Assembly (NCBI RefSeq): GCF_023055435.1
Contig: NW_025964334.1
Coordinates: 48,112,001 to 48,176,000, forward strand
Direction of reading: 5' to 3'
DNA: 64,000 bases
DNA from: Haliotis rufescens
Taxonomy: Eukaryota
Shown here: piece by piece, positions 821-60,638 of the stretch
How the letters are laid out: the number at the start of each line of letters is the position of its first letter
How positions within the stretch are numbered: position 1 is the first letter of the stretch
The notes under the pieces: model-generated
The model's database searches: none
Told to the model about the DNA's origin: nothing
The model's input: only the letters and a program-made list of their open reading frames with translations
Translations under genes and position numbers: made by a program

Positions 821-1744
821 TTAAAATACTTTTAGCATACAAGAAGGATCTAAAATTTGGTATCTACCATCATGAACCATAAGTATGTAGGCAGCGAAAG
901 GATGATTGAACATTTTCTGGAGTTTACGGGCAGTAACGAAAGAGACTCGAAGCGTGTTCGGGACCGAGAGAGACGTTTGGGTTAGGAGGTTAGTCACAGT
1001 AAAGGCGGGGCTTTCAACAGTAAGGGTGGGAAAGAAATATCCAGAGATTCGGAGCTGTTCCACCGTGTATGGGGGTTGAACATTCCAGTAGGAAGGACAG
1101 AGACTGAGAGCCAGAATAGGAACAGTGACACATTCTGGACCAGTGGTGAGCTCAAGAACGAGACCATTGTGAGTCCTAAGACTGCGTTCATAGATGAGAA
1201 GGAGAAGAATAGAAGCAACAGTGAGTGTGATCACTCCTAGAAGGATTGACACATGACAGTCAGCAAGATCAGACACATTGAAGCTGGGACTAGAAGTGGT
1301 TTGTGAATTATAATTTAGTACTGGAGGCTGTACTGCTTTAACTGGCGTGACACGAGTAACCAGCAATGGCGCAGCAGAGAGTGCACGAACTTTGAAAAAC
1401 ATCCAAAAAAGCAAAATAATTGAGAGAACTGACATAGCCGAAGTGGTGATGGCTATAATTGCATTTGTATCAGGCCAAGAACTTGGTAAAGTGATTTGAC
1501 CATCAAGCAATGGTTCCGTAATAGCCTGAAATATGGTTTGATCTTTTCTTGCCCTTTCAGCGACACGTTTAAGACTGAGATGGGACTTTTGATCACTGGC
1601 CAAAACATTGGAAATTTCATGAGAAAATATATCAAATTTTGGAATGGTGAAGTTAACTGCTTTTCTGAAAATTGTATCACCAGCAATACTAGAGAGGGTA
1701 GAATCCTCGAAGAAGTGTTTTGTAAGTGTAACATATGAATGCAT
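821..1744 (-). mobile_element. Truncated env-like membrane-protein ORF, probably from an LTR (Gypsy-type) retroelement
   Basis: 307-aa intronless ORF with two hydrophobic TM-like segments (AIIAITTSAMSVLSIILLFWMFF; VSILLGVITLTVASILLLLIY) after an amphipathic helical region. It resembles the C-terminal half of env-like ORFs of invertebrate Gypsy elements, recognised by eye only. Confidence 0.45.
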
Positions 1745-3739: not shown

Positions 3740-4560
3740 TATCATGTGTCTATGAACAATATTAATGGTGATGATACCTGGTGTTCGCGAAAAGGTTAGT
3801 GTATCCTGCCCCACCGGTGGAACCTATCACAAACACATGCAAATGCAAGTCAATTGTTCACCTGAAAAAGCTTGAGAACACATGTCTACCATGAAACGTT
3901 TTGAAAGCTTGACTGAGGCCTTGAATGTTAAAACCCTGTTCTAACAACTTTTGACCGAGAGTTTAGTGACACTCTTTGAAGTATTCGTACAAATATATAT
4001 TTGATTTTACCTCAAAATAATTTGTGAAATATGGTCAACAAAGGCTGGAGCTGCTGAAATATTGGCATAATCGGCATAAAGGGACATTTGACTATTGGAA
4101 AGTTGTAGTCAGCAGTGTTTTACAGTTTCGTGGAGAGTGTTTTGTCACTCTCAATCTGTGTGCATAGATCCAAATATAAGAAAACCCAGATGCAGCTGTC
4201 TTACTTACTTCCTTTATTTCCATTTCTGGTGTGTAAATCATGATCAGTTGAAGGGAATAGGCTATTTGATGGTTATTTAATGATATCAGATTATCGATAT
4301 CCCTGAAAGTTCTTGGCAAAATTTGCCAAACTGATCAGAAGTTCCGATTCATATGCATAAACAAACAGATCAGCAAGAAGGGAAGCACAATTGGTGCCCA
4401 TGATGATGCCTCTCACTCAAACATATGACATAGGTGTAATTAATGAGGAAGTCCAACATTTCACATATTTTCACAGTACTTCACAACTTCAGATGTCATT
4501 TCACATTTGACTATGGCGAAAGGTAGGTTTTCACACATGGGTGCCAAGAAACGAAACAAT
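3740..4560 (-). mobile_element. Penelope-like retroelement RT remnant with 3' tail
   Basis: Minus-strand translation gives GIIMGTNCASLLADLFVYAYE (~4345-4415), FRDIDNLISLNN (degenerate YIDD motif), YTPEMEIKE, NISAAPA and QKLLEQGF...FKTFHGRH, all typical of PLE RT. Frameshifted. Confidence 0.8.
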
Positions 4561-11349: not shown

Positions 11350-14300
11350 CAGATCAGTATAAGGTTTAAAAGTGGCAGAATTATGGATTTTGTGGACTTA
11401 CAGGACTTACGTACAATTGTTTTACCATACTTCAACCCCCGGTTATTCAGTTATGAATTCATTCTACCAAATTAAAAATCAATTACTTTATACTATATAT
11501 ATTATGATAAAAATTTATCTATTAATTCTATTTTTTTAGGAAACTGATGATTAAATGAGCACGTATTTGACTAAAAAGATCCTTGATGGATGAAACATTG
11601 AAACACTTATCCCTTGTAATGGAAAAATCAATACAGTCAAGCAGTACGTGCTTGACTGTGATTCTCTCGTCACAAGGGATACAAAACGGATGGTCCTCAC
11701 CTTACATTCGTGTGTATATCTTGAATGGCCAATATGACATCGTCGTAAAATGACCTCTTCAAATCTGGACTGACAACCCAAGTAGGTGTAACCATAGTTG
11801 GCTTAATTTGATGTGATTTATTGATACCTACTTGGGCGTCCCACTTCTTTGGCATAAGATCCCTGATGTAACATCTCATCACAGGTTTATTCTCACTGTT
11901 TAGAATTAGAATTAGTGTCACAGATTTGTTGAGTGCTGCTTCAGCTTCAGCATCAGCCATTGTGTTGACTTTTATAACCACATGACTGGGCAACCAACAA
12001 AAGACAATGTCGTATTGACCAGTTGAAAGATCAACATAAAGTTGTAAAATGTTTAAAATATTTGGATGATTAGAAGAGACTTTTTTCAGTACCTGAAGAC
12101 AAGATAGAGATTCAGAAAAGATGACAAATTGTTTATATGCAAACCTCTTTTGAATGTATATCAAAGGCTGTAAGGATAGCATTGGCCTCAGCAGGGAAAA
12201 TTGAGCTATTGTATGGTATTCTAGATGATAAATGTTTTGATCCAACGACAGTGGTGCATGCTTGGATCCATCAGTTAAGGTTGAACGGTGTGTGTCGTAT
12301 TTATTTCTTAATTGTAAATCTTCCTGTTGATATACTAGTTGGTTTGTGTCAGATATAATAAAACGGGTTAGAGAAACGTCTACTTCTGGCCTCACCAGCT
12401 GCCAGGGAGGAGTAGATAAAGCTGGTATGGAGATATAATACCTAGAACTATATTTGCAGCAATAATGTGTGATTTGATCCGAAATCCAAGTGGTGAAAAC
12501 AGTTTTGGTTTTCTCTGAAACAGTTCTTCATATAGGGGATGAAAAACGGAGTCATAGGCAGGATTAAAAGGATTGGAGTGTAATTTAGCGATATATTGAA
12601 GAGACAATTTAATACCACGTTGTTCAAAGAAGGTTCATCAGCCTCGACATAGATTCTGTCGACTGGAGAAGTTCTAAAAGAACCAAGGCATAGTCGTAGT
12701 CCTTGATGGTGGATTCAATCTAGCTGTAAGCTCCAGCATACACAATGGAGGCATTGTCCAATTTAGAGCAGATTAATGATCCCCTCCCCACTTTGAATTT
12801 GAGACGACTTTCAAAATATATAGGGCCTTCAGGCATTTAGTCTTTAAATATTTAATATGTGGCAAAAACGTCAAATGGTGGTCGAAAAACAATCCAAAAA
12901 ATGTGGCTTCTTTAATCCTTAAACCTTAATTGGAGTGTTATCTGGGTCTTTATGGGGGTTTATATTTCCGACAGAAATTTATGCAAATGGTCTTAGTCTG
13001 TGAAAACTTAAAGCCATTCTCTAGACACCATTTATGAATTTTATTAAGACACAACTGTAACTGTCTTTCAATGACACGCATATTTTTACCACAACATGAA
13101 ATATTAAAATCATCCACAAACAATGACCAATCGGTTGAGTCATTTAATACTTTAGATAAACTTTTTATTTTTATACTAAACAATTGACAGAAAATATACT
13201 GCCCTTTGGAACACCCTAATGCTGACTATAATGATAAGACAGGGTCGATACAACACGAACTTGAAATTGTCTGTCTGTTAAAAACTGTGATACAAATTGA
13301 GGCAAGCGGCCTCTTAAACAAAAGTCATGTAAATCTTTTAAAATACCATGCTTCCAAGAGGTATCATAAGCTTTTACAAGACCGAAAAAGATCGATACAG
13401 CATGTTGTTTATTGACAAAAGCATTTTTAGTAAATGATTCTAAACGAACTAAATGGTCAATTGTACCTCGTTTTTTACGAAAACCTCATTTGATATTACT
13501 GAGAAGATTGTATGGCATTTCTCCACGAAGAAGGAAAATGTCCTGTTGTCGAAATATCATCAAAAATATTCAGTGGTGTTACGAGACAAGATTCAGGCAA
13601 GTGTTTTAAGAGCTGATAATGGATATCATCAGCACCAGTTGCAGTATCATGAGCCTGTGCTAAAGCAGTGTGTAGCTCATGTAGTAAAAATACTTCGTTA
13701 TAATCTTCGCCATTGTCATGTAAATCTTTTTTTTTAAAAACATGCTTCCAAGAGGTATCATAAGCTCTTACAAGCCCAGTTTGTTTGCAATATCTGATTT
13801 TTCAGTCAATAAATTATCGTCATTTTTTAACCTTTCTCTTTGATTTTTTGGATCACGTTCCACACCTTTGACATAGGCGTCGGTGATTTTATTTTGGAAA
13901 CATAATCCTTCCAAGTCTGACGTTTATTGTATTTTTAAGTTCGACGAGCCTTGGCATAATTATTTTTTACATAAATCAAATTATGAACAGTAGGATGGTC
14001 GAAAGTATTTCTCTGCCTTCTCCCTGTGCTTCCTAGTTTCTTTGCACTCGTCAGTAAACCATGGTTTCCGAATATGTGGGTTCACAGAGGACTTAGGAAT
14101 AGTTTCATCAGAGAACAACTGAATTGGGTCAGGAACATCCATAAAAAGGTCTTGTTGCAATATGTCAATAAATATGGTCTGAAATAATGGCCAATTTGCC
14201 TTAGACAATTTCCATCTTCTTGTAGGTGGATCATCAAAGGGGTTTATAGCTGTAAGTACTGTTGGAAAATGATCACTTCCACAAGTCATCATGGACTGGC

Positions 14301-19997: not shown

Positions 19998-21176
19998 ATG
20001 GCCGCTTTCCTGTCAATATTTAGACGTGGTTTGGATCAGGACATGGTGGACAATGTGAACGGATTCTGGTCGGTTCTCCTCTTGGCCCTCTGCTCGGCTG
20101 GGGCATTTCTAGTGCGATACATTACTGATCCTACAAGCTGCTGGTACCCTTCACAATTTGAGGCATCCCAGGTTTCATACTCCGACCATGCCTGCTTCCT
20201 CACGGACGTCTTTTCCCAACCTGACACAAGTGATGTCCCCAAACTAAGGCATGATCGTGTCCCTTCCTACCATCTCTGGATACCACTCATACTCTTCTTC
20301 CAAGCCCTCGCTTTCAAAGTACCAAACATCATCTGGAACAGTGGCAAGCACTTCCTCACTTTCAACATGGACGAAACTGTCGAGTCCATGAATTGTGTAC
20401 AACTGACCAATGCTGAGAATCGACAGGCTATTTTCAGTGATGCAGCCCGAGTATTTGGAAGTCTACTGCGAAGAAATCGATTCTTTCTGGCGCTGTTGTA
20501 CCTATTTGTGAAGATTCTCTCTTTTGTCAATCTCATAGCACAGGTTATGTTCCTCACGATATACTTCAGACAAAACCTGGCAATCAGGGTAGGATCCTAT
20601 GCTGGTTTGGATATGGGCTCCATCGTAAAACCATTACTTGTGAAACAGGTATTTTGCGACATCGGTGTGTATATTATGGCAAATCTTCGAACATACACCG
20701 TTCAGTGCACTCTGCCAATCACCGAAATCTATGAGAAGATGTTCATATTCCTGTGGTACTGGGTCTTCCTCCTGGCTGTCCTCACAATCCTAAACCTTGT
20801 CCTGTGCGCAGGATTTCTCTTCATACCGTTCCTAAGAGATGGCAGGATAGCTGCCCACATCAACGCTGCCAAAGGATCTCGCCCTGACGAACCCAAAGTA
20901 ACTCGTTTCATCAGAAGTTTCCTCGGAATCGATGGTGTGCTTGTCCTGTCCATGATATCCCGGAATTCCAGCGAGTTAGTTGCAGCAGATCTCACCCAAC
21001 ATTTGTACCAGGTGTTTCAGGAGAAGGAAGAAGATCTTCAGAATCAGCGACATCTCTGCACAGGAGAACCGGAATGTGGCATTGTCCGAGATGAAGCAAC
21101 AGGAGCCGTGGCAGCTTTACCAATGAGCGATCTTCCCTCTGGCGCCGAAAAGTCGGAGAAGGCCCCGATTGTGTGA
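19998..21176 (+). CDS. Innexin paralogue 2 (392 aa)
   Basis: Same motifs as copy 1. Start placed at the ATG after the ttacag acceptor (19991) rather than at the ORF-track start 19956. Confidence 0.95.
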   Translation: MAAFLSIFRRGLDQDMVDNVNGFWSVLLLALCSAGAFLVRYITDPTSCWYPSQFEASQVSYSDHACFLTDVFSQPDTSDVPKLRHDRVPSYHLWIPLILFFQALAFKVPNIIWNSGKHFLTFNMDETVESMNCVQLTNAENRQAIFSDAARVFGSLLRRNRFFLALLYLFVKILSFVNLIAQVMFLTIYFRQNLAIRVGSYAGLDMGSIVKPLLVKQVFCDIGVYIMANLRTYTVQCTLPITEIYEKMFIFLWYWVFLLAVLTILNLVLCAGFLFIPFLRDGRIAAHINAAKGSRPDEPKVTRFIRSFLGIDGVLVLSMISRNSSELVAADLTQHLYQVFQEKEEDLQNQRHLCTGEPECGIVRDEATGAVAALPMSDLPSGAEKSEKAPIV

Positions 21177-23539: not shown

Positions 23540-26500
23540 AAGGTTTAAAAGTGGCAGAATTATGGATTTTGTGGACTTACAGGACTTACGTACAATTGTT
23601 TTACCATACTTCAACCCCCGGTTATTCAGTTATGAATTCATTCTACCAAATTAAAAATCAATTACTTTATACGTGCTTGACTGTGATTCTCTCGTCACAA
23701 GGGATACAAAACGGATGGTCCTCACCTTACATTCGTGTGTATATCTTGAATGGCCAATATGACATCGTCGTAAAATGACCTCTTCAAATCTGGACTGACA
23801 ACCCAAGTAGGTGTAACCATAGTTGGCTTAATTTGATGTGATTTATTGATACCTACTTGGGCGTCCCACTTCTTTGGCATAAGATCCCTGATGTAACATC
23901 TCATCACAGGTTTATTCTCACTGTTTAGAATTAGAATTAGTGTCACAGATTTGTTGAGTGCTGCTTCAGCTTCAGCATCAGCCATTGTGTTGACTTTTAT
24001 AACCACATGACTGGGCAACCAACAAAAGACAATGTCGTATTGACCAGTTGAAAGATCAACATAAAGTTCTAAAATGTTTAAAATATTTGGATGATTAGAA
24101 GAGACTTTTTTCAGTACCTGAAGACAAGATAGAGATTCAGAAAAGATGACAAATTGTTTATATGCAAACCTCTTTTGAATGTATATCAAAGGCTGTATGG
24201 ATAGCATTGGCCTCAGCAGGGAAAATTGAGCTATTGTATGGTATTCTAGATGATAAATGTTTTGATCCAACGACAGTGGTGCATGCTTGGATCCATCAGT
24301 TAATGTTGAACGGTGTGTGTCGTATTTATTTCTTAATTGTAAATCTTCCTGTTGATATACTAGTTGGTTTGTGTCAGATATAATAAAACGGGTTAGAGAA
24401 ACGTCTACTCCTGGCCTCACCAGCTGCCAGGGAGGAGTAGATAAGAGCTGGTATGGAGATATAATACCTAGAACTATATTTGCAGCAATAATGTGTGATT
24501 TGATCCGAATTCCAAGTGGTGAAAACAGTTTTGGTTTTCTCTGAAACAGTTCTTCATATAGGGGATGAAAAACGGAGTCATAGGCAGGATTAAAAGGATT
24601 GGAGTGTAATTTAGCGATATATTGAAGAGACAATTTAATACCACGTTGTTCAAAGAAGGTTCATCAGCCTCGACATAGATTCTGTCGACTGGAGAAGTTC
24701 TAAAAGAACCAAGGCATAGTCGTAGTCCTTGATGGTGGATTCAATCTAGCTGTAAGCTCCAGCATACACAATGGAGGCATTGTCCAATTTAGAGCAGATT
24801 AATGATCCCCTCCCAACTTTGAATTTGAGACGACTTTCAAAATATATAGGGCCTTCAGGCATTTAGTCTTTAAATATTTAATCTGTGGCAAAAACGTCAA
24901 ATGGTGGTCGAAAAACAATCCAAAAAATGTGGCTTCTTTAATCCTTAAACCTTAATTGGAGTGTTATCTGGGTCTTTATGGGGGTTTATATTTCCGACAG
25001 AAATTTATGCAAATGGTCTTTGTCTGTGAAAACTTAAAGCCATTCTCTAGACACCATTTATGAATTTTATTAAGACACAACTGTAACTGTCTATCAATGG
25101 CACGCATATTTTTACCACAACATGAAATATTAAAATCATCCCCAAACAATGACCAATCGGTTGAGTCATTTAATACTTTAGATAAACTTTTTATTTTTAT
25201 ACTAAACAATTGACAGAAAATATACTGCCCTTTGGAACACACTAATGCTGACTATAATGATAAGACAGGGTCGATACAACACGAACTTGAAATTGTCTGT
25301 CTGTTAAAAACTGTGATACAAATTGAGGCAAGCGGCCTCTTAAACCAAAGTCATGTAAATCTTTTAAAATACCATGCTTCCAAGAGGTATCATAAGCTTT
25401 TACAAGACCGAAAAAGATCGATACAGCATGTTGTTTATTGACAAAAACATTTTTAGTAAATGATTCTAAACGAACCAAATGGTCAATTGTACCTCGTTTT
25501 TTACGAAAACCTCATTTGATATTACTGAGAAGATTGTATGGCATTTCTCCACGAAGAAGGAAAATGTCCTGTTGTCGAAATATCATCAAAAATATTCAGT
25601 GGTGTTACGAGACAAGATTCAGGCAAGTGTTTTAAGAGCTGATAATGGATATCATCAGCACCAGTTGCAGTATCATGAGCCTGTGCTAAAGCAGTGTGTA
25701 GCTCATGTAGTAAAAATACTTCGTTATAATCTTCGCCATTGTCATGTAAATCTTTTTTTTTAAAAAAACATGCTTCCAAGAGGTATCATAAGCTCTTACA
25801 AGCCCAGTTTGTTTGCAATATCTGATTTTTCAGTCAATAAATTATCGTCATTTTTTAACCTTTCTTTTTGATTTTTTGGATCACATTCCACACCTTTGAC
25901 ATAGACGTCGGTGATTTTATTTGGAAACATAATCCTTCCAAGTCTGACGTTTATTGTATTTTTAAGTTTGACGAGCCTTGGCATAATTATTTTTTACATT
26001 AATCAAATTATGAACAGTAGGATGGTCGAAAGTATTTCTCTGCCTTCTCCCTGTGCTTCCTAGTTTCTTTGCACTCGTCAGTAAACCATGGTTTCCGAAT
26101 ATGTGGGTTCACAGAGGACTTAGGAATAGTTTCATCAGAGAACAACTGAATTGGGTCAGGAACATCCATAAAAAGGTCTTGTTGCAATATGTCAATACAT
26201 ATGGTCTGAAATAATGGCCAATTTGCCTTAGACAATTTCCATCTTCTTGTAGGTGGATCATCAAAGGGGTTTATAGCTGTAAGTACTGTTGGAAAATGAT
26301 CACTTCCACAAGTCATCATGGACTGGCCATTCAAATTCATTATATAAGTTAGAATCTGTGATTGACAGATCTAATACAATATAGGTACCAGTTGTAGGAT
26401 GTAAATATGTGTTCGAGGCGTCGTTGAGTATGCATAATTTATTATTAGAGATAAAATCTTCAAGGATTTTCCCTTTATTGTTAGTATTGAAACTTCCTCA

Positions 26501-31589: not shown

Positions 31590-32768
31590 ATGGCCGCTTT
31601 CCTGTCAATATTTAGACGTGGTTTGGATCAGGACATGGTGGACAATGTGAACGGATTCTGGTCGGTTCTCCTCTTGGCCCTCTGCTCGGCTGGGGCATTT
31701 CTAGTGCGATACATTACTGATCCTACAAGCTGCTGGTACCCTTCACAATTTGAGGCATCACAGGTTTCATACTCCGACCATGCCTGCTTCCTCACGGACG
31801 TCTTTTCCCAACCTGCCACAAGTGATGTCCCCAAACTAAGGCATGATCGTGTCCCTTCCTACCATCTCTGGATACCACTCATACTCTTCTTCCAAGCCCT
31901 CGCTTTCAAAGTACCAAACATCATCTGGAACAGTGGCAAGCACTTCCTCACTTTCAACATGGACGAAACTGTCGAGTCCATGAAATGTGTACAACTGACC
32001 AATGCTGAGAATCGACAGGCTATTTTCAGTGATGCAGCCCGAGTATTTGGAAGTCTACTGAGAAGAAATCGATTCTTTCTGGCGCTGTTGTACCTATTTG
32101 TGAAGATTCTCTCATGTGTCAATCTCATAGCACAGTTTATGTTCCTCACGATATACTTCAGACAAAACCTGGCAATCAGGGTAGGATCCTATGCTGGTTT
32201 GGATATGGGCTCCATCGTAAAACCATTACTTGTGAAACAGGTATTTTGCGACATCGGTGTGTATATTATGGCAAATCTTCGAACATACACCGTTCAGTGC
32301 ACTCTGCCAATCACCGAAATCTATGAGAAGATGTTCATATTCCTGTGGTACTGGGTCTTCCTCCTGGCTGTCCTCACAATCCTAAACCTTGTCCTGTGCG
32401 CAGGATTTCTCTTCATACCGTTCCTAAGAGATGGCAGGATAGCTGCCCACATCAACGCTGCCAAAGGATCTCGCCCTGACGAACCCAAAGTAACTCGTTT
32501 CATCAGAAGTTTCCTCGGAATCGATGGTGTGCTTGTCCTGTCCATGATATCCCGGAATTCCAGCGAGTTAGTTGCAGCAGATCTCACCCAACATTTGTAC
32601 CAGGTGTTTCAGGAGAAGGAAGAAGATCTTCAGAATCAGCGACATCTCTGCACAGGAGAACCGGAATGTGGCATTGTCCGAGATGAAGCAACAGGAACCG
32701 TGGCAGCTTTACCAATGAGCGATCTACCCTCTGGCGCCGAAAAGTCGGAGAAGGCCCCGATTGTGTGA
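31590..32768 (+). CDS. Innexin paralogue 3 (392 aa)
   Basis: Five aa differences from copy 2; EL2 identical to copy 2. Confidence 0.95.
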   Translation: MAAFLSIFRRGLDQDMVDNVNGFWSVLLLALCSAGAFLVRYITDPTSCWYPSQFEASQVSYSDHACFLTDVFSQPATSDVPKLRHDRVPSYHLWIPLILFFQALAFKVPNIIWNSGKHFLTFNMDETVESMKCVQLTNAENRQAIFSDAARVFGSLLRRNRFFLALLYLFVKILSCVNLIAQFMFLTIYFRQNLAIRVGSYAGLDMGSIVKPLLVKQVFCDIGVYIMANLRTYTVQCTLPITEIYEKMFIFLWYWVFLLAVLTILNLVLCAGFLFIPFLRDGRIAAHINAAKGSRPDEPKVTRFIRSFLGIDGVLVLSMISRNSSELVAADLTQHLYQVFQEKEEDLQNQRHLCTGEPECGIVRDEATGTVAALPMSDLPSGAEKSEKAPIV

Positions 32769-36688: not shown

Positions 36689-37635
36689 TCACTGAGCAGT
36701 GGGTCGACACCAACAAATCATCTCATGGGTTGGCACACAAATCTGTACAAATATTCATTGAGATACTGCAGATTGAGCAGGATAATCCAATTAGTTTGAT
36801 GCCCCCCGAGAAGAAGTTTCGAAATCAGACCATGTCCATGAGAAGGAGACAACATCTCGCTGATCAAAAGCCAGTTACCGATTATGACAATGCTGTTTCA
36901 CATTTAGTTTTACTGTGAATACTGTAAATTGGAGATTGGAGTATGTATTGTGTATTTTTGTGTCGTTATGCGTCGGTCCCGTACATTGTTTGAAGAAACA
37001 CGATGGTGTTTATCCCTTGGCCAGCTGCTGGACAAATAACAAGTCACTGTTTATGGCACCCAAAAGGATGTTAATAATAAAATGCTAGTTACAGATTGTT
37101 AATTGTCATTTTAATTACTGACAACAGCAAAATCAAAGGTGACGCTTTACACATTCAGAAATTCAAGATATTCAATATTGTTATTTTTGTAGGGTTAACA
37201 GAAATAGCAGAAACAGTATATGTACATTGACTTAATATTTATAGGATAATTGATATTCGCAAAAAATTGCAATCATTTTTTCACTTACTTGCTCTTTGAC
37301 ATTACTTTAAATAGTTTATATTATGTAACTATGATATGGTATGTTGGGAGTGACACTTGGCGCTTTGCTGCCTGAACTAGTCTGAACTAATGTATTATAG
37401 TGCAAGCCCTCTAAGATACCATGCTAGAGTTAAACATGTGTACCTCACACAGACACAGTATTACCCCTTAATGCCGAGCGCCTGGCAGAGTAAAAACAAA
37501 TACGATCTCATAACGCATTTTGGTATGATCGAACCACCAGCCCTCAGCTCTCTGGGCAGACGCTCTATCCGCTACACCTATCTACACAATAACAGTTTAA
37601 TATATGCACTATGTGTTGTATGTTTACAGACAACA

Positions 37636-38814
37636 ATGGCCGCTTTCCTGTCAATATTTAGACGTGGTTTGGATCAGGACATGGTGGACAATGTGAACGG
37701 ATTCTGGTCGGTTCTCCTCTTGGCCCTCTGCTCGGCTGGGGCATTTCTAGTGCGATACATTACTGATCCTACAAGCTGCTGGTACCCTGCACATTTAACT
37801 GCATCCCACGTTTCATACTCCGACCATGCCTGCTTCCTCACGGACGTCTTTTACCAACCTTACACAAGTTATGTCCCCAAATCAAGTCATGAACGTGTCC
37901 CCTCCTACCATCTCTGGATACCACTCATACTCTTCTTCCAAGCCCTTGCTTTCAAAGTACCAAACATCATCTGGAACAGTGGCAAGAACTTCCTCACTTT
38001 CAACATGGACGAAACTGTCGAGTCCATGAAATGTGTACAACTGACCAATGCTGAGAATCGCCAGGCCATTTTCAGTGATGCAGCCCGAGTATTTGGAAGT
38101 CTACTGAGAAGAAATCGATTCTTTCTGGCGCTGTTGTACCTATTTGTGAAGATTCTCTCATGTGTCAATCTCATAGCACAGTTTATGTTCCTCACGATAT
38201 ACTTCAGACAATACCTGGCAATCAGGGTAGGATCCTATGCTGGTTTGGATATGGGCTCCATCGTAAAACCATTACTTGTGAAACATGTTTTCTGCGACAT
38301 CGATGTGTATATGTTGAAAAATCTTCGAAAATTCACTGTTCAGTGCATTCTGCCAATCACCGAAATCTATGAGAAGATGTTCATATTCCTGTGGTACTGG
38401 GTCTTCCTCCTGGCTGTCATCACAATCCTAAACCTTGTCCTGTGGGCAGGATTTCTCTTCATACCGTTCCTAAGAGATGGCAGGATAGCTGCCCACATCA
38501 ACGCTGCCAAAGGATCTCGCCCTGACGAACCCAATGTAACTCGTTTCATCAGAAGTTTCCTCGGAATCGATGGTGTACTTGTCTTGGCAATGATATCCCG
38601 GAATTCCAGCGAGTTAGTTGCAGCAGATCTCACCCAACATTTGTACCAGGTGTTTCAGGAGAAGGAAGAAGATCTTCAGAATCAGCGACATCTCTGCACA
38701 GGAGAACCGGAATGTGGGATTGTCCGAAATGAAGCAACAGGAACCGTGGCAGCTTTACCAATGAGCGAGCTACCCTCTGGTCCTGAAAACTCGGAGAAGG
38801 CCCCGATTGTGTGA
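37636..38814 (+). CDS. Innexin paralogue 4 (392 aa)
   Basis: Same architecture, with the most divergent EL1 (PAHLTASH...YQPYTSYVPKSSHE). ATG follows the ttacag acceptor at 37629. Confidence 0.95.
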   Translation: MAAFLSIFRRGLDQDMVDNVNGFWSVLLLALCSAGAFLVRYITDPTSCWYPAHLTASHVSYSDHACFLTDVFYQPYTSYVPKSSHERVPSYHLWIPLILFFQALAFKVPNIIWNSGKNFLTFNMDETVESMKCVQLTNAENRQAIFSDAARVFGSLLRRNRFFLALLYLFVKILSCVNLIAQFMFLTIYFRQYLAIRVGSYAGLDMGSIVKPLLVKHVFCDIDVYMLKNLRKFTVQCILPITEIYEKMFIFLWYWVFLLAVITILNLVLWAGFLFIPFLRDGRIAAHINAAKGSRPDEPNVTRFIRSFLGIDGVLVLAMISRNSSELVAADLTQHLYQVFQEKEEDLQNQRHLCTGEPECGIVRNEATGTVAALPMSELPSGPENSEKAPIV

Positions 38815-42795: not shown

Positions 42796-45700
42796 TTAAG
42801 CGTCATGAACAGTATCATGTGTCTATGAACAGTATCAATAGTGATGATACCTGGTGTTCGCGAAAAGGTGAGTGTATCCTGCCCCATCGGTGGAACCCAT
42901 CACAAACACACGCAAAAGCATGTCAATTGTTCACCTTGTGTTACGGAAGAAAATATCAAAACTTGTTCAAGCAGGCCCAAAATGTCCAAAGGTGGTTCCT
43001 AGAGTTTGGGCCGATTTGGCAAGTAAAAAACTCTTTTTTGTGACGTACTATTTAAAATGTTTGTGACACTGTGATCCACTGTATTTAACTTTTTCTTCCT
43101 ATTCCAAGGACCTTATGTACACTACTTTCTTCTTGGCTGATTCGTCACACAATTATTTCTTCATCGGTCAAGTGACCTACATTATTTATGTAAAACAATC
43201 ACAGAGTACCAGGTTCACTCTACAGAAGGTGACAACTGCTGGCGTTCCAAAGTATTCTTGTATGAAAGGTCAGTAATGGCAATTTGCAACAATTACCATG
43301 ATTACTCTGACATTAATTAGGTAAGTAGATGTACGGTTGGTGAAACACAAGCCCCCTGTGTAATATCACACATGTTCTGGCACCAATAATAGCACGACAG
43401 AGTGTTTACTGTTGTGATTATATTTAGTTCTGTAGTTGGATGCCACGGTAAACTGTTTGCGCTGTCAACCAAGGATAGGAGTCACCAGGACAGGTAACTT
43501 CGCATGCGTGACTACATATCCAAATTAAGAATTCGTTGATTAGGATCACACCTAAGTAAACATTTTCAGGTGAACAATTGACTTGCCTTTGCCTTTGTTT
43601 ATGAAAGGTCCCTCCGGTGGGGCAGGATACGCTCACCTTTTCGTGAACTCCAGGTATCATCACTATTGATAGTGTTCAGGGACACGTGCTTATGTTATGG
43701 TGGGAATCGCCAATGTATTCTGCTTTTGGCAGATATTTCCGATGATTATGGAAAGGGTTTGTTTGCTGTATTACCGATCACAGGAACATTAGTGTTTCAA
43801 ACAGTGATGTTGTTTCGCAATAACCTCATTTCACGGAAACAAGAGAACGCTTAAACTTCAAATGTGGCTTTTCAAATGAACAGGTATAGCAATAATTTTG
43901 TGTGACAGAGCTTTATTAATTGCTTGCACAGTAGTTGGCTCCTCAGATGAATTGTCCACAAGTGTTTTCTTATTTTCCGAAATCGACCTTCCTGCACATG
44001 GATATGTCAGAGGAAATGTGACCATCATCTCGGGCCCTTTATCAGCAGATTATAGACAAGGAATGCAACTCTACACAACGAATTGTTGTGACCTAATACA
44101 CTAGGCCATCTGTACCCCCTTGGTCTGTAAACAGCAACGTTTTATATATTCCCCAGTATCTAATCCAGTCAGTGCCCCACTTGTAACGAATAACGCCATA
44201 ACATGGTCTGGTATAGAAACTGAATGACATAATTGGCTCAATTTGAAATAATGAGAGTTAATAGCAGAAACTTAGGGAACATAAAGGCCGCGGTCGGTCA
44301 ACAATACAACCAGCCCGCAAGTATTGTATATGTCAGCATCACACTGTTCTGTACTATCAACAGCTAGTGCAACCAGAGGTGGAAGCAACGCTTGTCGAAC
44401 AGTAATCCCAAGGATATTTCAAACCTCCAGGATCCCTTTCAAGTTTCCAGTCTCTGGTTCGCTTTGTTGTAAGTATTTTATTTTATTTTGAGATTGTTTT
44501 AGATTAGATTATTTAAAATCAATTCGGTTTATGGAATTAAAGGTCATTGGTCCAAGTAGAAAGGTAAATAGTTTTACAACAGACAGTGGGACTAGAGGTA
44601 TATGACATTTAAACCTTGAAATGGCGATGTTAAACAAGTGATTATCTCAATAATAATGCCATAACTTCTTCCGGTTTAACTACAACAGAGGTTCGGCTTT
44701 CACACCTTAAAATACGACATGAATTGAATGTACACTTAGCAATACATCTTTTGGGTATATAATATGCTATTATTTCATTATATAATGGACATTTTAATAG
44801 GACATGAAAGTTTATCTGCAATCAAATTAAAATTACCAAATGTGCAGATTCTGTCTTCATTTTGCCAACGACCTATATCTATTTGTAACCCCGTCCCACA
44901 AATTCTCCATTGAGCAAAATACCATATGTTGTGCAAGGAACTTTTATTAAACAAGTAATATTCGGTTTTTAGACACATTTCATAACATGAATAGTTTTCA
45001 TATTTCGAGCTTATATTTATCGTTGACCCGTGAAGAGCAGGGTTAGAATTGGTCTTAAGCAACCCCTGCCTGCTGTAAGAGGCGATTGACGGGATCGGGT
45101 AATCAGGCTCGCTGACTTGGTAGTGCATGTCATCATATCCCAACTGCGTCTCAGATATGACACAACTAATTGGTGAACAATATTCACATACACTATACTG
45201 AGTGTAACGTTTTAAAATATATATCAATGACTGAGTGAAGATATTAATTAATAAACGATTTGCGTTATGAAGGGAATCACAGATAAGAAACAGTGCTCCA
45301 CTGTGGCAAATTCGCAGGCTGAAAACTTCTGAATTCTTAGTTGGGTGGCACTTGGGTTTTTTTTTCGAATACATGTTCATGGTTAAGACCGGACGCTAAA
45401 CTTCCTTTCATTGGAAATGTTTCCAAAGTGGATGCCAGACCACTGTTAACAACTTTGACTTTGTCACGAAGCACAAATTATCTCATAGCAGAACCAGTAT
45501 ATGTATATTGACTTAATATTCATAGGACAATTGATATTCGCAAAAAATTGCAATTATTTTTATCACTTACTTGCCCTTTGATATTACTTTAAATAGTTCA
45601 TATTTTGTAACTATGATATGGTATGTTGGGAGTAACATTTGGCGCTTTGCTGCCTGAAATAGTCTGAACTAATGTATTATAGTGCAAGCCCTCTAAGATA

Positions 45701-45917: not shown

Positions 45918-47096
45918 ATGGCCGCTTTCCTGTCAATATTTAGACGTGGTTTGGATCAGGACATGGTGGACAATGTGAACGGATTCTGGTCGGTTCTCCT
46001 CTTGGCCCTCTGCTCGGTAGGGGCATTTCTAGTGCGATACATTACTGATCCTACAAGCTGCTGGTACCCTTCACAATTTGAGGCATCACAGGTTTCATAC
46101 TCCGACCATGCCTGCTTCCTCACGGATGTCTTTTCCCAACCTGACACAAGTGATGTCCCAAAGTCAAGGCATGATCGTGTCCCCTCCTACCATCTCTGGA
46201 TACCCCTCATACTCTTCTTCCAAGCCCTTGCTTTCAAAGTACCAAACATCATCTGGAACAGTGGCAAGCACTTCCTCACTTTCAACATGGACGAAACTGT
46301 CGAGTCCCTGAAAAAAATACAACTGACCAATGCTGAGAATCGCCAGGCTATTTTCAGTGATGCAGCCCGAGTATTTGGAAGTCTACTGAGAAGAAATCGA
46401 TTCTTTCTGGCGCTGTTGTACCTATTTGTGAAGATTCTCTCATGTGTCAATCTCATAGCACAGTTTATGTTCCTCACGATATACTTCAGACAATACCTGG
46501 CAATCAGGGTAGGATCCTATGCTGGTTTGGATATGGGCTCCATCGTAAAACCATTACTTGTGAAACAGGTTTTTTGCGACATCGGTGTGAGAATTTTGGA
46601 AACTCTTCGAACATACACTTTTCAGTGCACTCTGCCAATCACCGAAATCTATGAGAAGATGTTCATATTCCTGTGGTACTGGGTCTTCCTCCTGGCTGTC
46701 ATCACAATCCTAAACCTTGTCCTGTGGGCAGGATTTCTCTTCATACCGTTCCTAAGAGATGGCAGGATAGCTGCCCACATCAACGCTGCCAAAGGATCTC
46801 GCCCTGACGAACCCAATGTAACTCGTTTCATCAGAAGTTTCCTCGGAATCGATGGTGTACTTGTCTTGTCCATGATATCCCAGAATTCCAGCGAGTTAGT
46901 TGCAGCAAATCTCACCCAACATTTGTACCTGGTGTTTCAGGAGAAGGAAGAGGAACTTCAGAATCAGCGACATCTCTGCACAGGAGAACCGGAATGTGGC
47001 ATTGTCCAAAATGAAGCAACAGGAACCATGGCAGCTTTACCAATGAGCGATCTACCCTCTGGTCCTGAAAAGTCGGAGAAGGACCAGATTGTGTGA
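45918..47096 (+). CDS. Innexin paralogue 5 (392 aa)
   Basis: Same architecture, with the most divergent EL2 hairpin (CDIGVRILETLRTYTFQC) and C-tail (…EKDQIV). Confidence 0.95.
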   Translation: MAAFLSIFRRGLDQDMVDNVNGFWSVLLLALCSVGAFLVRYITDPTSCWYPSQFEASQVSYSDHACFLTDVFSQPDTSDVPKSRHDRVPSYHLWIPLILFFQALAFKVPNIIWNSGKHFLTFNMDETVESLKKIQLTNAENRQAIFSDAARVFGSLLRRNRFFLALLYLFVKILSCVNLIAQFMFLTIYFRQYLAIRVGSYAGLDMGSIVKPLLVKQVFCDIGVRILETLRTYTFQCTLPITEIYEKMFIFLWYWVFLLAVITILNLVLWAGFLFIPFLRDGRIAAHINAAKGSRPDEPNVTRFIRSFLGIDGVLVLSMISQNSSELVAANLTQHLYLVFQEKEEELQNQRHLCTGEPECGIVQNEATGTMAALPMSDLPSGPEKSEKDQIV

Positions 47097-52628: not shown

Positions 52629-53429
52629 CAGTAGACTCTGCGTAATCCGACATCTGTCGAAAGCAACATTCTGTCTAATCAGACACAGCCCTGCGTTGTC
52701 ATAAAAAATTACACTGTGAAATCCGACATCTGTCTATTGCGAATTCCGACCCTGTTTTGTGGCCCCCATGAGCAAATCCACGCTCTGTAATCCGACATCA
52801 AAACAAGACCAACGACCTTCAATAAACACTCAATTGTAGCCGCGGAGGATTTGTACATGTATTTAGTAAACAACCTTCAATAAACACTCAATTGGGATCG
52901 TGGAGGATTTGTACATGCAATTGTAAACAACCTTCAATAAACACTCAATTGTAGCCGTGGGGGATCTGTACATGTATTTAGTAAACAACCTTCAATAAAC
53001 ACCCAACTGTAATCGTGGGGGATTTGTACATGTATTTAGTAAACAACCTTCAATAAACACTCATTTGGGATCGTGGGGGATGTGTACATGCATTTGTAAA
53101 CAACCTTCAATAAACACTCAATTGTAGTCGTAGAGGATTTGTACATGTATTTAGTAAACAACCTTCAATAAACACTCAATTGGGGTCGTGGGGGGATGTG
53201 TACATGTTTTCAGTAAACAATATTCAATAAACATTCAATTAAAGCTTAACAAGGATAATCTACATTGGACAAAGTAACTGTTGATGTTTGGTAAAACACG
53301 AGGGTTAATCTTTAATTATTTCCTTAATTAAGTGATAGTCTGGATTTCAGACTGAGTGAATCATTGAGAACAATCTAATCCGACATTTCCCTCGGCCCCG
53401 AGCAGTGACGGGTTACACAGAGTGTACTG
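52629..53429. mobile_element. Tc1/mariner-pogo type non-autonomous element carrying a 57-59-bp tandem array
   Basis: TA|CAGTAGACTCTGCGTAATCCG ... CGGGTTACACAGAGTGTACTG|TA, subterminal 'atccgac' motifs, and an internal array at ~52812-53240 (7 full units plus a partial). Confidence 0.85.
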
Positions 53430-59752: not shown

Positions 59753-60638
59753 ATACCCGAGGGATCGCTGGGTTCTGACATCTAGTAAAACCTTGGATAC
59801 CCGAGGGATCGCTGGGTTCTGACATCTAGTAATACCTTGGATACCCGAGGGATCGCTGGGTTCTGACATCTAGTAAAACCTTGGATACCCGAGGGATTGC
59901 TGGGTTCTGACATCTAGTAATACCTTGGATACCCGAGGGATTGCTCGGTTCTGACATCTAGTAATACCTTGGATACCCGAGGGATCGCTGGGTTCTGACA
60001 TCTAGTAAAACCTTGGATACCCGAGGGATCGCTGGGTTCTGACATCTAGTAATACCTTGGATACCCGAGGGATTGCTGGGTTCTGACATCTAGTAATACC
60101 TTGGATACCCGAGGGATTGCTGGGTTCTGACATCTAGTAATACCTTGGATACCCGAGGGATTGCTGGGTTCTGACATCTAGTAATACCTTGGATACCCGA
60201 GGGATCGCTGGGTTCTGACATCTAGTAAAACCTTGGATACCCGAGGGATCGCTGGGTTCTGACATCTAGTAATACCTTGGATACCCGAGGGATTGCTGGG
60301 TTCTGACATCTAGTAATACCTTGGATACCCGAGGGATTGCTGGGTTCTGACATCTAGTAAAACCTTGGATACCCGAGGGATCGCTGGGTTCTGACATCTA
60401 GTAATACCTTGGATACCCGAGGGATTGCTGGGTTCTGACATCTAGTAATACCTTGGATACCCGAGGGATTGCTCGGTTCTGACATCTAGTAAATACCTTG
60501 GATACCCGAGGGATTGCTTGGTTCTAACATCTAGTAATACCTTGGATACCCGAGGGATTGCTCGGTTCTGACATCTAGTAAATACCCTGGATACCCGAGG
60601 GATTGCTCCGTTCTGACATCTAGTAAATACCTTGGATA
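59753..60638. repeat. 44-bp minisatellite, ~20 units, intronic
   Basis: Unit gatacccgagggat(c/t)gctgggttctgacatctagtaa(t/a)accttg, with no spacers. Confidence 0.98.

What the first reader, a model, noticed from the sequence alone, without database searches (positions are those of the whole stretch)
37789..37893. Second variable hotspot in extracellular loop 1, most extreme in copy 4
Seen: copy 4 differs from copy 1 at 10 EL1 positions (SQFE>AHLT at 52-55, Q58H, H74Q, A76Y, D79Y, R84S, D86E). Residues 73-76 vary across all copies (YHPA, SQPD, SQPA, YQPY, SQPD). Copy 5 has the most derived EL2 but a common EL1, while copy 4 has the most derived EL1. Inference: EL1 and EL2 vary semi-independently, giving combinatorial surface types.
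Basis: partly seen in the sequence, partly recalled or inferred. Interest (0 to 1): 0.7.

Follow-up and report, generated by a model that had tools for sequence, protein, structure and literature searches.

The report
Old docking loop in abalone innexin
One of five neighbouring gap-junction (innexin) genes of an abalone carries a distinct outer loop that is likely an old version kept while copy-to-copy exchange evened out the rest of the gene, which could let the copies differ in which cells they connect.

Summary
The hotspot is real. Copy 4 of five intact tandem innexin genes differs from copy 1 at the 10 stated EL1 residues, and 9 of its 16 private residues lie in codons 52-86 (scan p=0.0002). 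'Most derived' is probably backwards: only 3 of the 10 (L54, Y79, S84) are unique among 11 type-A proteins from four Haliotis species, H74Q is a copy-1 change, and in an EL1 tree copy 4 branches first (96/95) although its core groups with copies 2 and 3 (AU p=0.008). The array is a gene-conversion mosaic, so loops do re-assort, also across species. Against upstream paralogues, N-terminus to EL1 is synonymously saturated while the core is homogenised. The variable patches map to the parts that form the INX-6 docking interface. Positive selection is only suggestive (EL1 omega 1.2, not above 1; site test p=0.07 after masking multi-base codons), and EL1 is also about twice as fast in an unrelated single-match innexin. 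Copy 4 is not a pseudogene. Nine literature searches found no description of this array; two look-ups of earlier scan findings showed none on innexins.

The parts
37636..38814 (+). Innexin copy 4, single coding exon, 392 aa, intact
   Evidence: (PF00876 184 bits, cut-off 25)
37628..37635 (+). Splice acceptor AG (37628-37629) and 6 bases before the ATG; the longer upstream ORF from 37390 is probably intron
   Evidence: same context before all 5 window copies and 6 upstream paralogues; contigs of X1 and X7 fit from exactly 37630 with 110 and 79 unlaid letters on the upstream side, DNA-like runs X2, X4 continue to 37627
37789..37809 (+). EL1 patch a, codons 52-58, between Cys48 and the start of the E1 helix (predicted inner, pore-side lobe)
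   Evidence: INX-6 passages in PMC5146279; lobe assignment inferred
37852..37893 (+). EL1 patch b, codons 73-86, coil after Cys66 (predicted outer lobe); the most variable stretch of the family
   Evidence: mean entropy 2.03 bits for 70-87 vs 0.22-0.51 in TM2-TM4 and CT, 27 proteins
38284..38349 (+). EL2 beta-hairpin, codons 217-238, with Cys220 and Cys237
   Evidence: strands 217-226 and 229-238 in the model; Cys match INX-6 C248/C265
7812..8990 (+). Innexin copy 1
19998..21176 (+). Innexin copy 2
31590..32768 (+). Innexin copy 3 (9 nt from copy 2, youngest pair)
45918..47096 (+). Innexin copy 5

Best explanation
The stretch is the first extracellular loop of one of five intact tandem innexin genes, and it stands out because copy 4 likely keeps an old loop lineage while gene conversion has evened out the rest of the gene, probably because selection preserves different predicted docking faces among the copies. 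Shown: intact innexin, clustered differences, mosaic site patterns, segment trees that disagree, saturated synonymous divergence from the N-terminus to EL1 between type A (window) and type B (upstream) genes against low divergence in the core. Inferred: copy 4's EL1 split before the H. rufescens/H. cracherodii divergence; T55E, H58Q and E86D arose on the branch of the other copies, A52S in copies 1, 2, 3, 5, Q74H in copy 1, and only L54, Y79, S84 in copy 4; conversion tracts swap loops onto different cores. Inferred and untested: the three variable patches (52-58, 73-86, 217-238) form one surface, the socket and plug by which opposed hemichannels dock in INX-6, with 52-58 next to the E1-helix pore constriction, so the copies would differ in partner preference or permeability. 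Odds: about 0.7 for the history (old loop, converted core), about 0.45 that selection on docking or pore function is what keeps it.
For: EL1 tree of 11 type-A proteins: copy 4 first branch, other six one clade at 96/95; core grouping rejected, AU p=0.008; support stays 92-93 when any one of sites 55, 58, 86 is dropped. Codon model: with its own synonymous rate EL1 runs 3.1x faster at omega 0.43, i.e. both site classes are raised, as for an older segment. Type A vs B: synonymous differences at amino-acid-identical codons 26-29 of 41-44 in codons 1-92 vs 25-33 of 182-193 in the core, Fisher p<=5e-9 in 4 of 4 pairs; EL2 hairpin 4-5 of 10-11, p=0.02-0.12. Codons 1-92 reject grouping by species lineage (AU 0.004) whereas the best core tree groups by lineage (SH-aLRT 85). 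INX-6: E1 inner and outer lobes and E2 hairpins form the docking cavity, E1 helices a 19 A constriction (PMC5146279 passages). No N-glycosylation sequon in the loops of 11 of 11 type-A proteins. Copy-4-type sequence in other runs: Y76 path in 4 of 4 runs, Y79 in 3 of 4 (by subtraction in table 3); X1 record 8 (3' end, 2 differences from copy 4 where the other copies have 9-66) and X7 record 26 (EL1b, 1 difference where others have 8-9).
Against: EL1 omega is 1.17 under one synonymous rate, not different from 1. The site test (M2a vs M1a p=1e-4, sites 55, 76, 131, 133, 225, 228) falls to p=0.07 when 7 multi-base codons are masked, is p=0.08 for codons 1-95 alone, and is also positive in the non-loop part (p=0.015). 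EL1 is about twice as fast as the core in the unrelated innexin-11-like gene too (15 of 41 vs 33 of 204 against H. rubra). The basal place of copy 4 rests on three sites of 50; without all three support is 53/73; site 55 toggles (5 changes in 27 proteins) and a long branch can be drawn to the outgroup. The protein core does not reject a type-A clade (AU 0.144) and the EL2 hairpin test is not significant (AU 0.305). No pairwise conversion tract survives correction (best p=0.023 of 10 pairs). The patch-a residues of copy 4 (52-58) were seen in 0 of 4 laid runs (contigs collapse variants, so this shows no absence). The protected block includes the N-terminus and TM1, not only the loop, so loss of homology alone may bar conversion. 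Model confidence is modest (pLDDT 64, 57 for residues 81-90). Tissue and function are unknown.
Confidence: 0.55

Rival explanations
1. Neutral patchwork: the loops are loosely constrained in all these innexins, conversion tracts fall at random and fail where sequences have already diverged, so copy 4 kept an old EL1 by chance and the loop types have no functional meaning.
For: EL1 omega 0.43-1.17, never significantly above 1; site test not robust; EL1 and EL2 hairpin also fast in the innexin-11-like gene; several array members are broken by stops (4 of 9 type-B matches plus fragments), so copies are dispensable; protected block extends over N-terminus and TM1.
Against: Loop types persist across species (EL2 type of copy 5 in P0025, type-A/B split in four species); the three peaks coincide with the three elements of the INX-6 docking interface; EL2 omega 1.8 with local synonymous rate 0.9x; codons 1-33 and 35-51 are identical in all five copies right up to the patch.
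Confidence: 0.28
2. Recent adaptive burst in copy 4: strong diversifying selection (for example from a pathogen, toxin or gamete partner that binds the loop) drove about nine changes, several of them back to residues used elsewhere in the family.
For: All 11 copy-4-private nucleotide changes in EL1 sit in codons that change the residue; sites 55 and 76 have posterior 0.97-0.98 for omega>1; sites 53, 55, 56, 73 toggle 5-11 times in 27 proteins; copy 4's core is nested with copies 2, 3 and P0025; an innexin under positive selection is reported in Alvinella worms (PMC9441076, passages).
Against: It needs three independent returns to the outgroup state (55, 58, 86), one by three base changes; the EL1 tree prefers a basal copy 4 at 96/95; local synonymous divergence is raised too.
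Confidence: 0.14
3. Copy 4 is an unexpressed, relaxed pseudogene or an assembly artefact.
For: Only about 950 bases upstream of copy 4 derive from the region upstream of copies 2 and 3; no first exon was located; patch-a residues not seen in 4 laid runs.
Against: Open frame, four cysteines, TM2 proline and acceptor intact; changes are clustered, not even; outside the loops pN/pS against the other copies is 0.014-0.028 over 0.030-0.059; copy-4-type pieces occur in runs of four studies, including X1 whose contigs look spliced.
Confidence: 0.03

Closest known systems
C. elegans INX-6 (PDB 5H1Q/5H1R; PMC5146279)
   Same: Only PDB sequence match (E=1e-25) and top fold match (TM 0.62); four TM helices, four loop cysteines in register, E1 helix, E2 hairpin.
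   Different: About 23% identity; docking of the abalone proteins is not shown; here the coding region is one exon and sits in a tandem array with variable loops.
Divergence peaks under gene conversion: RHD/RHCE exon 7, red/green opsin exon 5 (PMC3924837, PMC3966226; passages)
   Same: Tandem paralogues homogenised except around outward-facing or functional sites, with raised synonymous divergence there.
   Different: In those cases the selected sites are known by function; here they are predicted only, and the protected block is long (codons 1-92).
Clustered protocadherins (PMC3966226, passage)
   Same: Tandem array of cell-contact proteins with domain-specific homogenisation and diverse recognition parts.
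   Different: Protocadherin variable exons splice to shared constant exons and give cell identity codes; here each exon holds a whole protein, shared splicing is unproven and specificity untested.
Innexin tandem cluster of ctenophores (PMC9949713) and fast-evolving Group 2 molluscan innexins (PMC8049302); passages
   Same: Lineage-specific innexin duplication, with low conservation and variable glycosylation sites in some groups.
   Different: The passages read describe no conversion mosaic or loop-type retention; I did not test to which molluscan group the array belongs.

Membership tests
Innexin (Pfam PF00876) | Profile score above the curated cut-off | tested here: met
   184 bits vs 25, residues 15-339
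Innexin (Pfam PF00876) | Four transmembrane helices with two extracellular loops, INX-6 fold | tested here: met
   helices 16-42, 94-120, 163-189, 241-275; Foldseek top hit 5H1Q, E=2e-12
Innexin (Pfam PF00876) | Two conserved cysteines per loop and a proline in TM2 | tested here: met
   C48, C66, C220, C237 align with INX-6 C58, C76, C248, C265; P96; invariant in 5 of 5 copies
Gap-junction-forming innexin | No N-glycosylation sequon in the loops (a predictor only; PMC8769644 notes exceptions) | tested here: met
   0 of 11 type-A proteins; an EL1 sequon in 9 of the 16 type-B proteins
Gap-junction-forming innexin | Forms intercellular channels | not testable with these tools
   needs paired-cell recording or dye transfer
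Divergence peak kept against gene conversion (RH/opsin pattern) | Exchange between tandem copies | tested here: met
   clustered incompatibility p=0.0003 (34 informative sites, 5 neighbours; p=0.37 for adjacent only); AU 0.008; segment-wise synonymous contrast
Divergence peak kept against gene conversion (RH/opsin pattern) | Target groups by gene type, remainder by species | tested here: inconclusive
   codons 1-92 reject lineage grouping (AU 0.004); core best tree groups by lineage at SH-aLRT 85 but does not reject type grouping (AU 0.144)
Divergence peak kept against gene conversion (RH/opsin pattern) | Selection at the peak | tested here: inconclusive
Protocadherin-type identity code | Variable exons joined to shared exons or chosen per cell | tested here: inconclusive
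   only hint is isoform X1/X2 naming of different paralogues in H. cracherodii and H. rubra; my candidate first exon proved to be a dispersed repeat
Protocadherin-type identity code | Type-specific homophilic recognition | not testable with these tools
   needs coupling assays
Pseudogene | Broken frame, lost conserved residues or even spread of changes | tested here: not met

The most novel reading that the evidence does not exclude
Abalones keep an innexin array in which old, reshuffled EL1 and EL2 loop types act as a docking code that decides which cells, or which individuals' cells, can couple: a gap-junction counterpart of the protocadherin cluster, possibly with whole coding exons chosen from a shared 5' exon.
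Probability: 0.18. Interest if true: 0.82.

Novelty: new variant of a known kind. Interest (0 to 1): 0.45.

Why it matters
Which residues set partner choice in innexin junctions is poorly understood (PMC5412853, summary passage). Five channels 91-99% identical that differ mainly in the three predicted docking elements, with natural loop swaps across two species, are a ready-made panel for mapping that. A conversion mosaic with protected loops did not turn up for innexins in my searches. If the loops prove neutral, the array is an ordinary birth-and-death innexin expansion.

Tried and rejected
1) 'Copy 4 most derived': rejected by outgroup states and the EL1 tree. 2) Region-level omega>1 in EL1: not significant. 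3) Site-model positive selection: not robust to masking 7 multi-base codons; my own GY94 code, naive posteriors, 5 sequences. 4) Patch a as a transfer from a type-B paralogue: the DNA does not match (codons printed). 5) A conserved element at window 3900-4320 as shared promoter or first exon: it is a dispersed repeat (2622 candidates, 39 scored matches on other contigs at 73-76%); dropped. 6) Fourfold-site test for the EL2 hairpin: 1-3 sites only, uninformative. 7) Longest-identical-run test for conversion tracts: none significant after 10 pairs. 8) No RNA holder listed; X1 and X7 are guessed RNA, and contig depth gives no expression level; X7's copy-4-type piece (depth 5) is close to its intronic background (2-4). 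9) An apparent branch at codon 53 in X7 is just clipping of the alignment; not used. 10) Tables 3, 5, 7 and 8 were cut (173, 81, 722 and 126297 rows not shown), so the first exon and finer EL1 variants stayed unseen; EL1 variants in the other abalone species' runs remain unexamined. 11) Rows left out of trees: one search dropped 5 of 35, one search dropped 10 of 35, one search dropped 8 of 35 (near-duplicates, truncated or distant rows); broken copies were left out of codon models. 12) Literature searches found no paper on this array or on conversion among innexins; the library lacks most subscription papers; no supplements were read. 13) Earlier-findings look-ups gave nothing that bears on this. 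14) No complex prediction was run: docking needs two octamers, beyond the size limit.

Full report
What is there. The window holds five same-strand copies of a 392-codon gene (CDS 7812, 19998, 31590, 37636, 45918) that arose by segmental tandem duplication. Pfam calls it an innexin (184 bits, cut-off 25); the only PDB sequence match and the top fold match is C. elegans INX-6. All 24 homologues at E<=1e-40 carry the innexin domain; the named ones are from Haliotis (21) and Gigantopelta (1). The genome holds 6 more long matches upstream on the same contig and 3 on contig C600 (70-78% identity, 'type B'; 4 of these 9 have stops). Each gene has one coding exon behind a conserved acceptor.

The observation. 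Codons 52-86 of copy 4 are 37789-37893 and the ten differences from copy 1 are as stated. Nine of 16 residues private to copy 4 lie there (scan p=0.0002), so the changes are not evenly spread. H74Q, however, is private to copy 1.

Polarity. T55, H58 and E86 of copy 4 match 4 of 4 outgroup orthologues; A52 matches both H. cracherodii proteins and nearly all type-B proteins; H53 and Y76 recur in other type-A proteins. Only L54, Y79 and S84 are unique among the 11. In the EL1 tree copy 4 branches first and the other six form a clade at 96/95; the grouping found in the core (copies 2, 3, 4 with P0025) is rejected for EL1 (AU p=0.008). Support holds at 92-93 when any one of the three key sites is dropped, 80-88 for any two, 53 for all three. 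Site 55 toggles in the family and long branches can attract, so reversal is not excluded. Likewise the EL2 hairpin type of copy 5 is shared with P0025 (97%).

Mosaic history. Among the five copies, informative sites give conflicting splits (1+5 in EL1, 1+4 in EL2, 4+5 in the C-terminal part) and compatible sites cluster (p=0.0003 and 0.0025 for 5 and 3 neighbours, 0.37 for adjacent sites). P0025 differs from copy 4 at 3 of 204 core residues but 8 of 50 in EL1 and 11 of 22 in the hairpin. Between types A and B, synonymous divergence is near saturation in codons 1-92 and low in the core (26-29 of 41-44 vs 25-33 of 182-193; p<=5e-9 in 4 of 4 pairs), with a weaker rise in the hairpin (p=0.02-0.12). 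Codons 1-92 group by type across species (99%; lineage grouping rejected, AU 0.004). The best core tree groups by lineage (SH-aLRT 85) but does not reject type grouping (AU 0.144). This is the divergence-peak pattern described for RH, opsin and protocadherin genes (PMC3924837, PMC3966226; passages).

Selection. With one synonymous rate omega is 1.17 in EL1, 1.41 in EL2 and 0.40 elsewhere; neither loop differs from 1. With separate rates EL1 has omega 0.43 at 3.1x rate and EL2 omega 1.83 at 0.9x. Site models favour a class above 1 (p=1e-4 with four segment trees; sites 55, 76, 131, 133, 225, 228), but p=0.07 after masking 7 multi-base codons, p=0.08 for codons 1-95, and p=0.015 for the non-loop part. 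In the innexin-11-like gene, a single match elsewhere in the genome, EL1 is also about twice as fast as the core. So selection is suggested, not shown.

Structure. The model (pLDDT 64) places a helix at 56-69, coil at 74-86 and a hairpin at 217-238; the four cysteines align with the INX-6 disulphides. [quoted passage not shown] Across 27 array proteins the entropy peaks are 52-58 (1.45 bits), 70-87 (2.03) and 217-238 (1.53) against 0.2-0.5 in TM2-TM4 and the C-terminus. Assigning 52-58 and 73-86 to the two lobes is my inference; figures were not seen. None of 11 type-A proteins has a loop sequon, whereas 9 of 16 type-B proteins do; glycosylation often, not always, blocks docking (PMC8769644, passages). 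EL1 and EL2 are thus likely one composite surface, which tempers 'independent'.

Is copy 4 alive? Frame, cysteines and acceptor are intact and non-loop pN is at or below pS. In one search (4 runs, 4 studies, contigs only) X1 and X7 contigs fit from exactly the acceptor with extra upstream letters, consistent with splicing; that contig carries the common patch a. Copy-4-type pieces are present: X1 record 8 at the 3' end (2 differences; other copies 9-66) and X7 record 26 in EL1 (1 difference, D79; other copies 8-9); by subtraction a Y76 path occurs in 4 of 4 runs and Y79 in 3 of 4. Patch a of copy 4 was seen in 0 of 4, which collapsed contigs cannot turn into absence.

Verdict. A real but re-interpreted hotspot: most likely an old EL1 lineage retained on a converted core, in an abalone innexin array whose predicted docking elements carry most of the diversity. 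It is a member of the innexin family; it works in evolution like RH, opsin or protocadherin arrays; a docking code is plausible and untested. Searches (listings only, plus passages of PMC9441076, PMC9949713, PMC8049302, PMC5412853) found no description of it. Interest 0.45.

Noticed in passing
protein names (P0038/P0026; P0036/P0006): Different single-exon paralogues are named isoform X1 and X2 with consecutive accessions in H. cracherodii (type B and type A, about 72% alike) and in H. rubra, which may mean a shared 5' exon spliced to alternative whole coding exons, or a gene-model artefact.
   Followed up: partly
G000:C556:47.80-48.03 Mb (L006, L007, L010, L012, L013, L014) and C600 (L008, L009, L011): Upstream type-B half of the array with stops in 4 of 9 genes; C600 looks like the other haplotype, and L010 (stop at Cys66) versus L011 (intact) may be a null/intact allele pair. 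L013 has a shortened, changed C-terminus relative to its H. cracherodii orthologue.
   Followed up: partly
window 38026-38037 (codons 131-134 of copy 4): Third variable patch in the cytoplasmic loop with four versions among five copies; sites 131 and 133 score as high as the loop sites in the site model.
   Followed up: partly
window 37636-37788 and equivalents: Codons 1-51 are identical in all five copies except codon 34 of copy 5, although the intron just upstream differs by up to 19 in 92 bases; strong homogenisation of the N-terminus and TM1 within type A but never with type B.
   Followed up: partly
copy 5, window 45918-47096: Copy 5 shares V34, R225, Q322, N331 and E346 with outgroup orthologues, so it seems to keep old states in other segments; its 3' flank diverges abruptly about 15 bases after the stop.
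   Followed up: partly
G000:C334:10.7-11.2, 13.5, 16.3, 21.5 Mb: A second, larger group of distant innexin matches (25-36% identity), many clustered near 11 Mb.
   Followed up: no
window 821-1744 (-), 11697-12182 (-), 23722-24207 (-), 44778-45380 (-): ORFs without Pfam match (3 scanned); they look like fragments of mobile elements carried along by the duplications.
   Followed up: partly
window 59753-60638 and 52811-53240: Tandem repeats with units of about 88 and 58 bases.
   Followed up: no
window 3900-4320: Dispersed repeat of about 410 bases, also upstream of four type-B genes; thousands of candidates genome-wide.
   Followed up: yes
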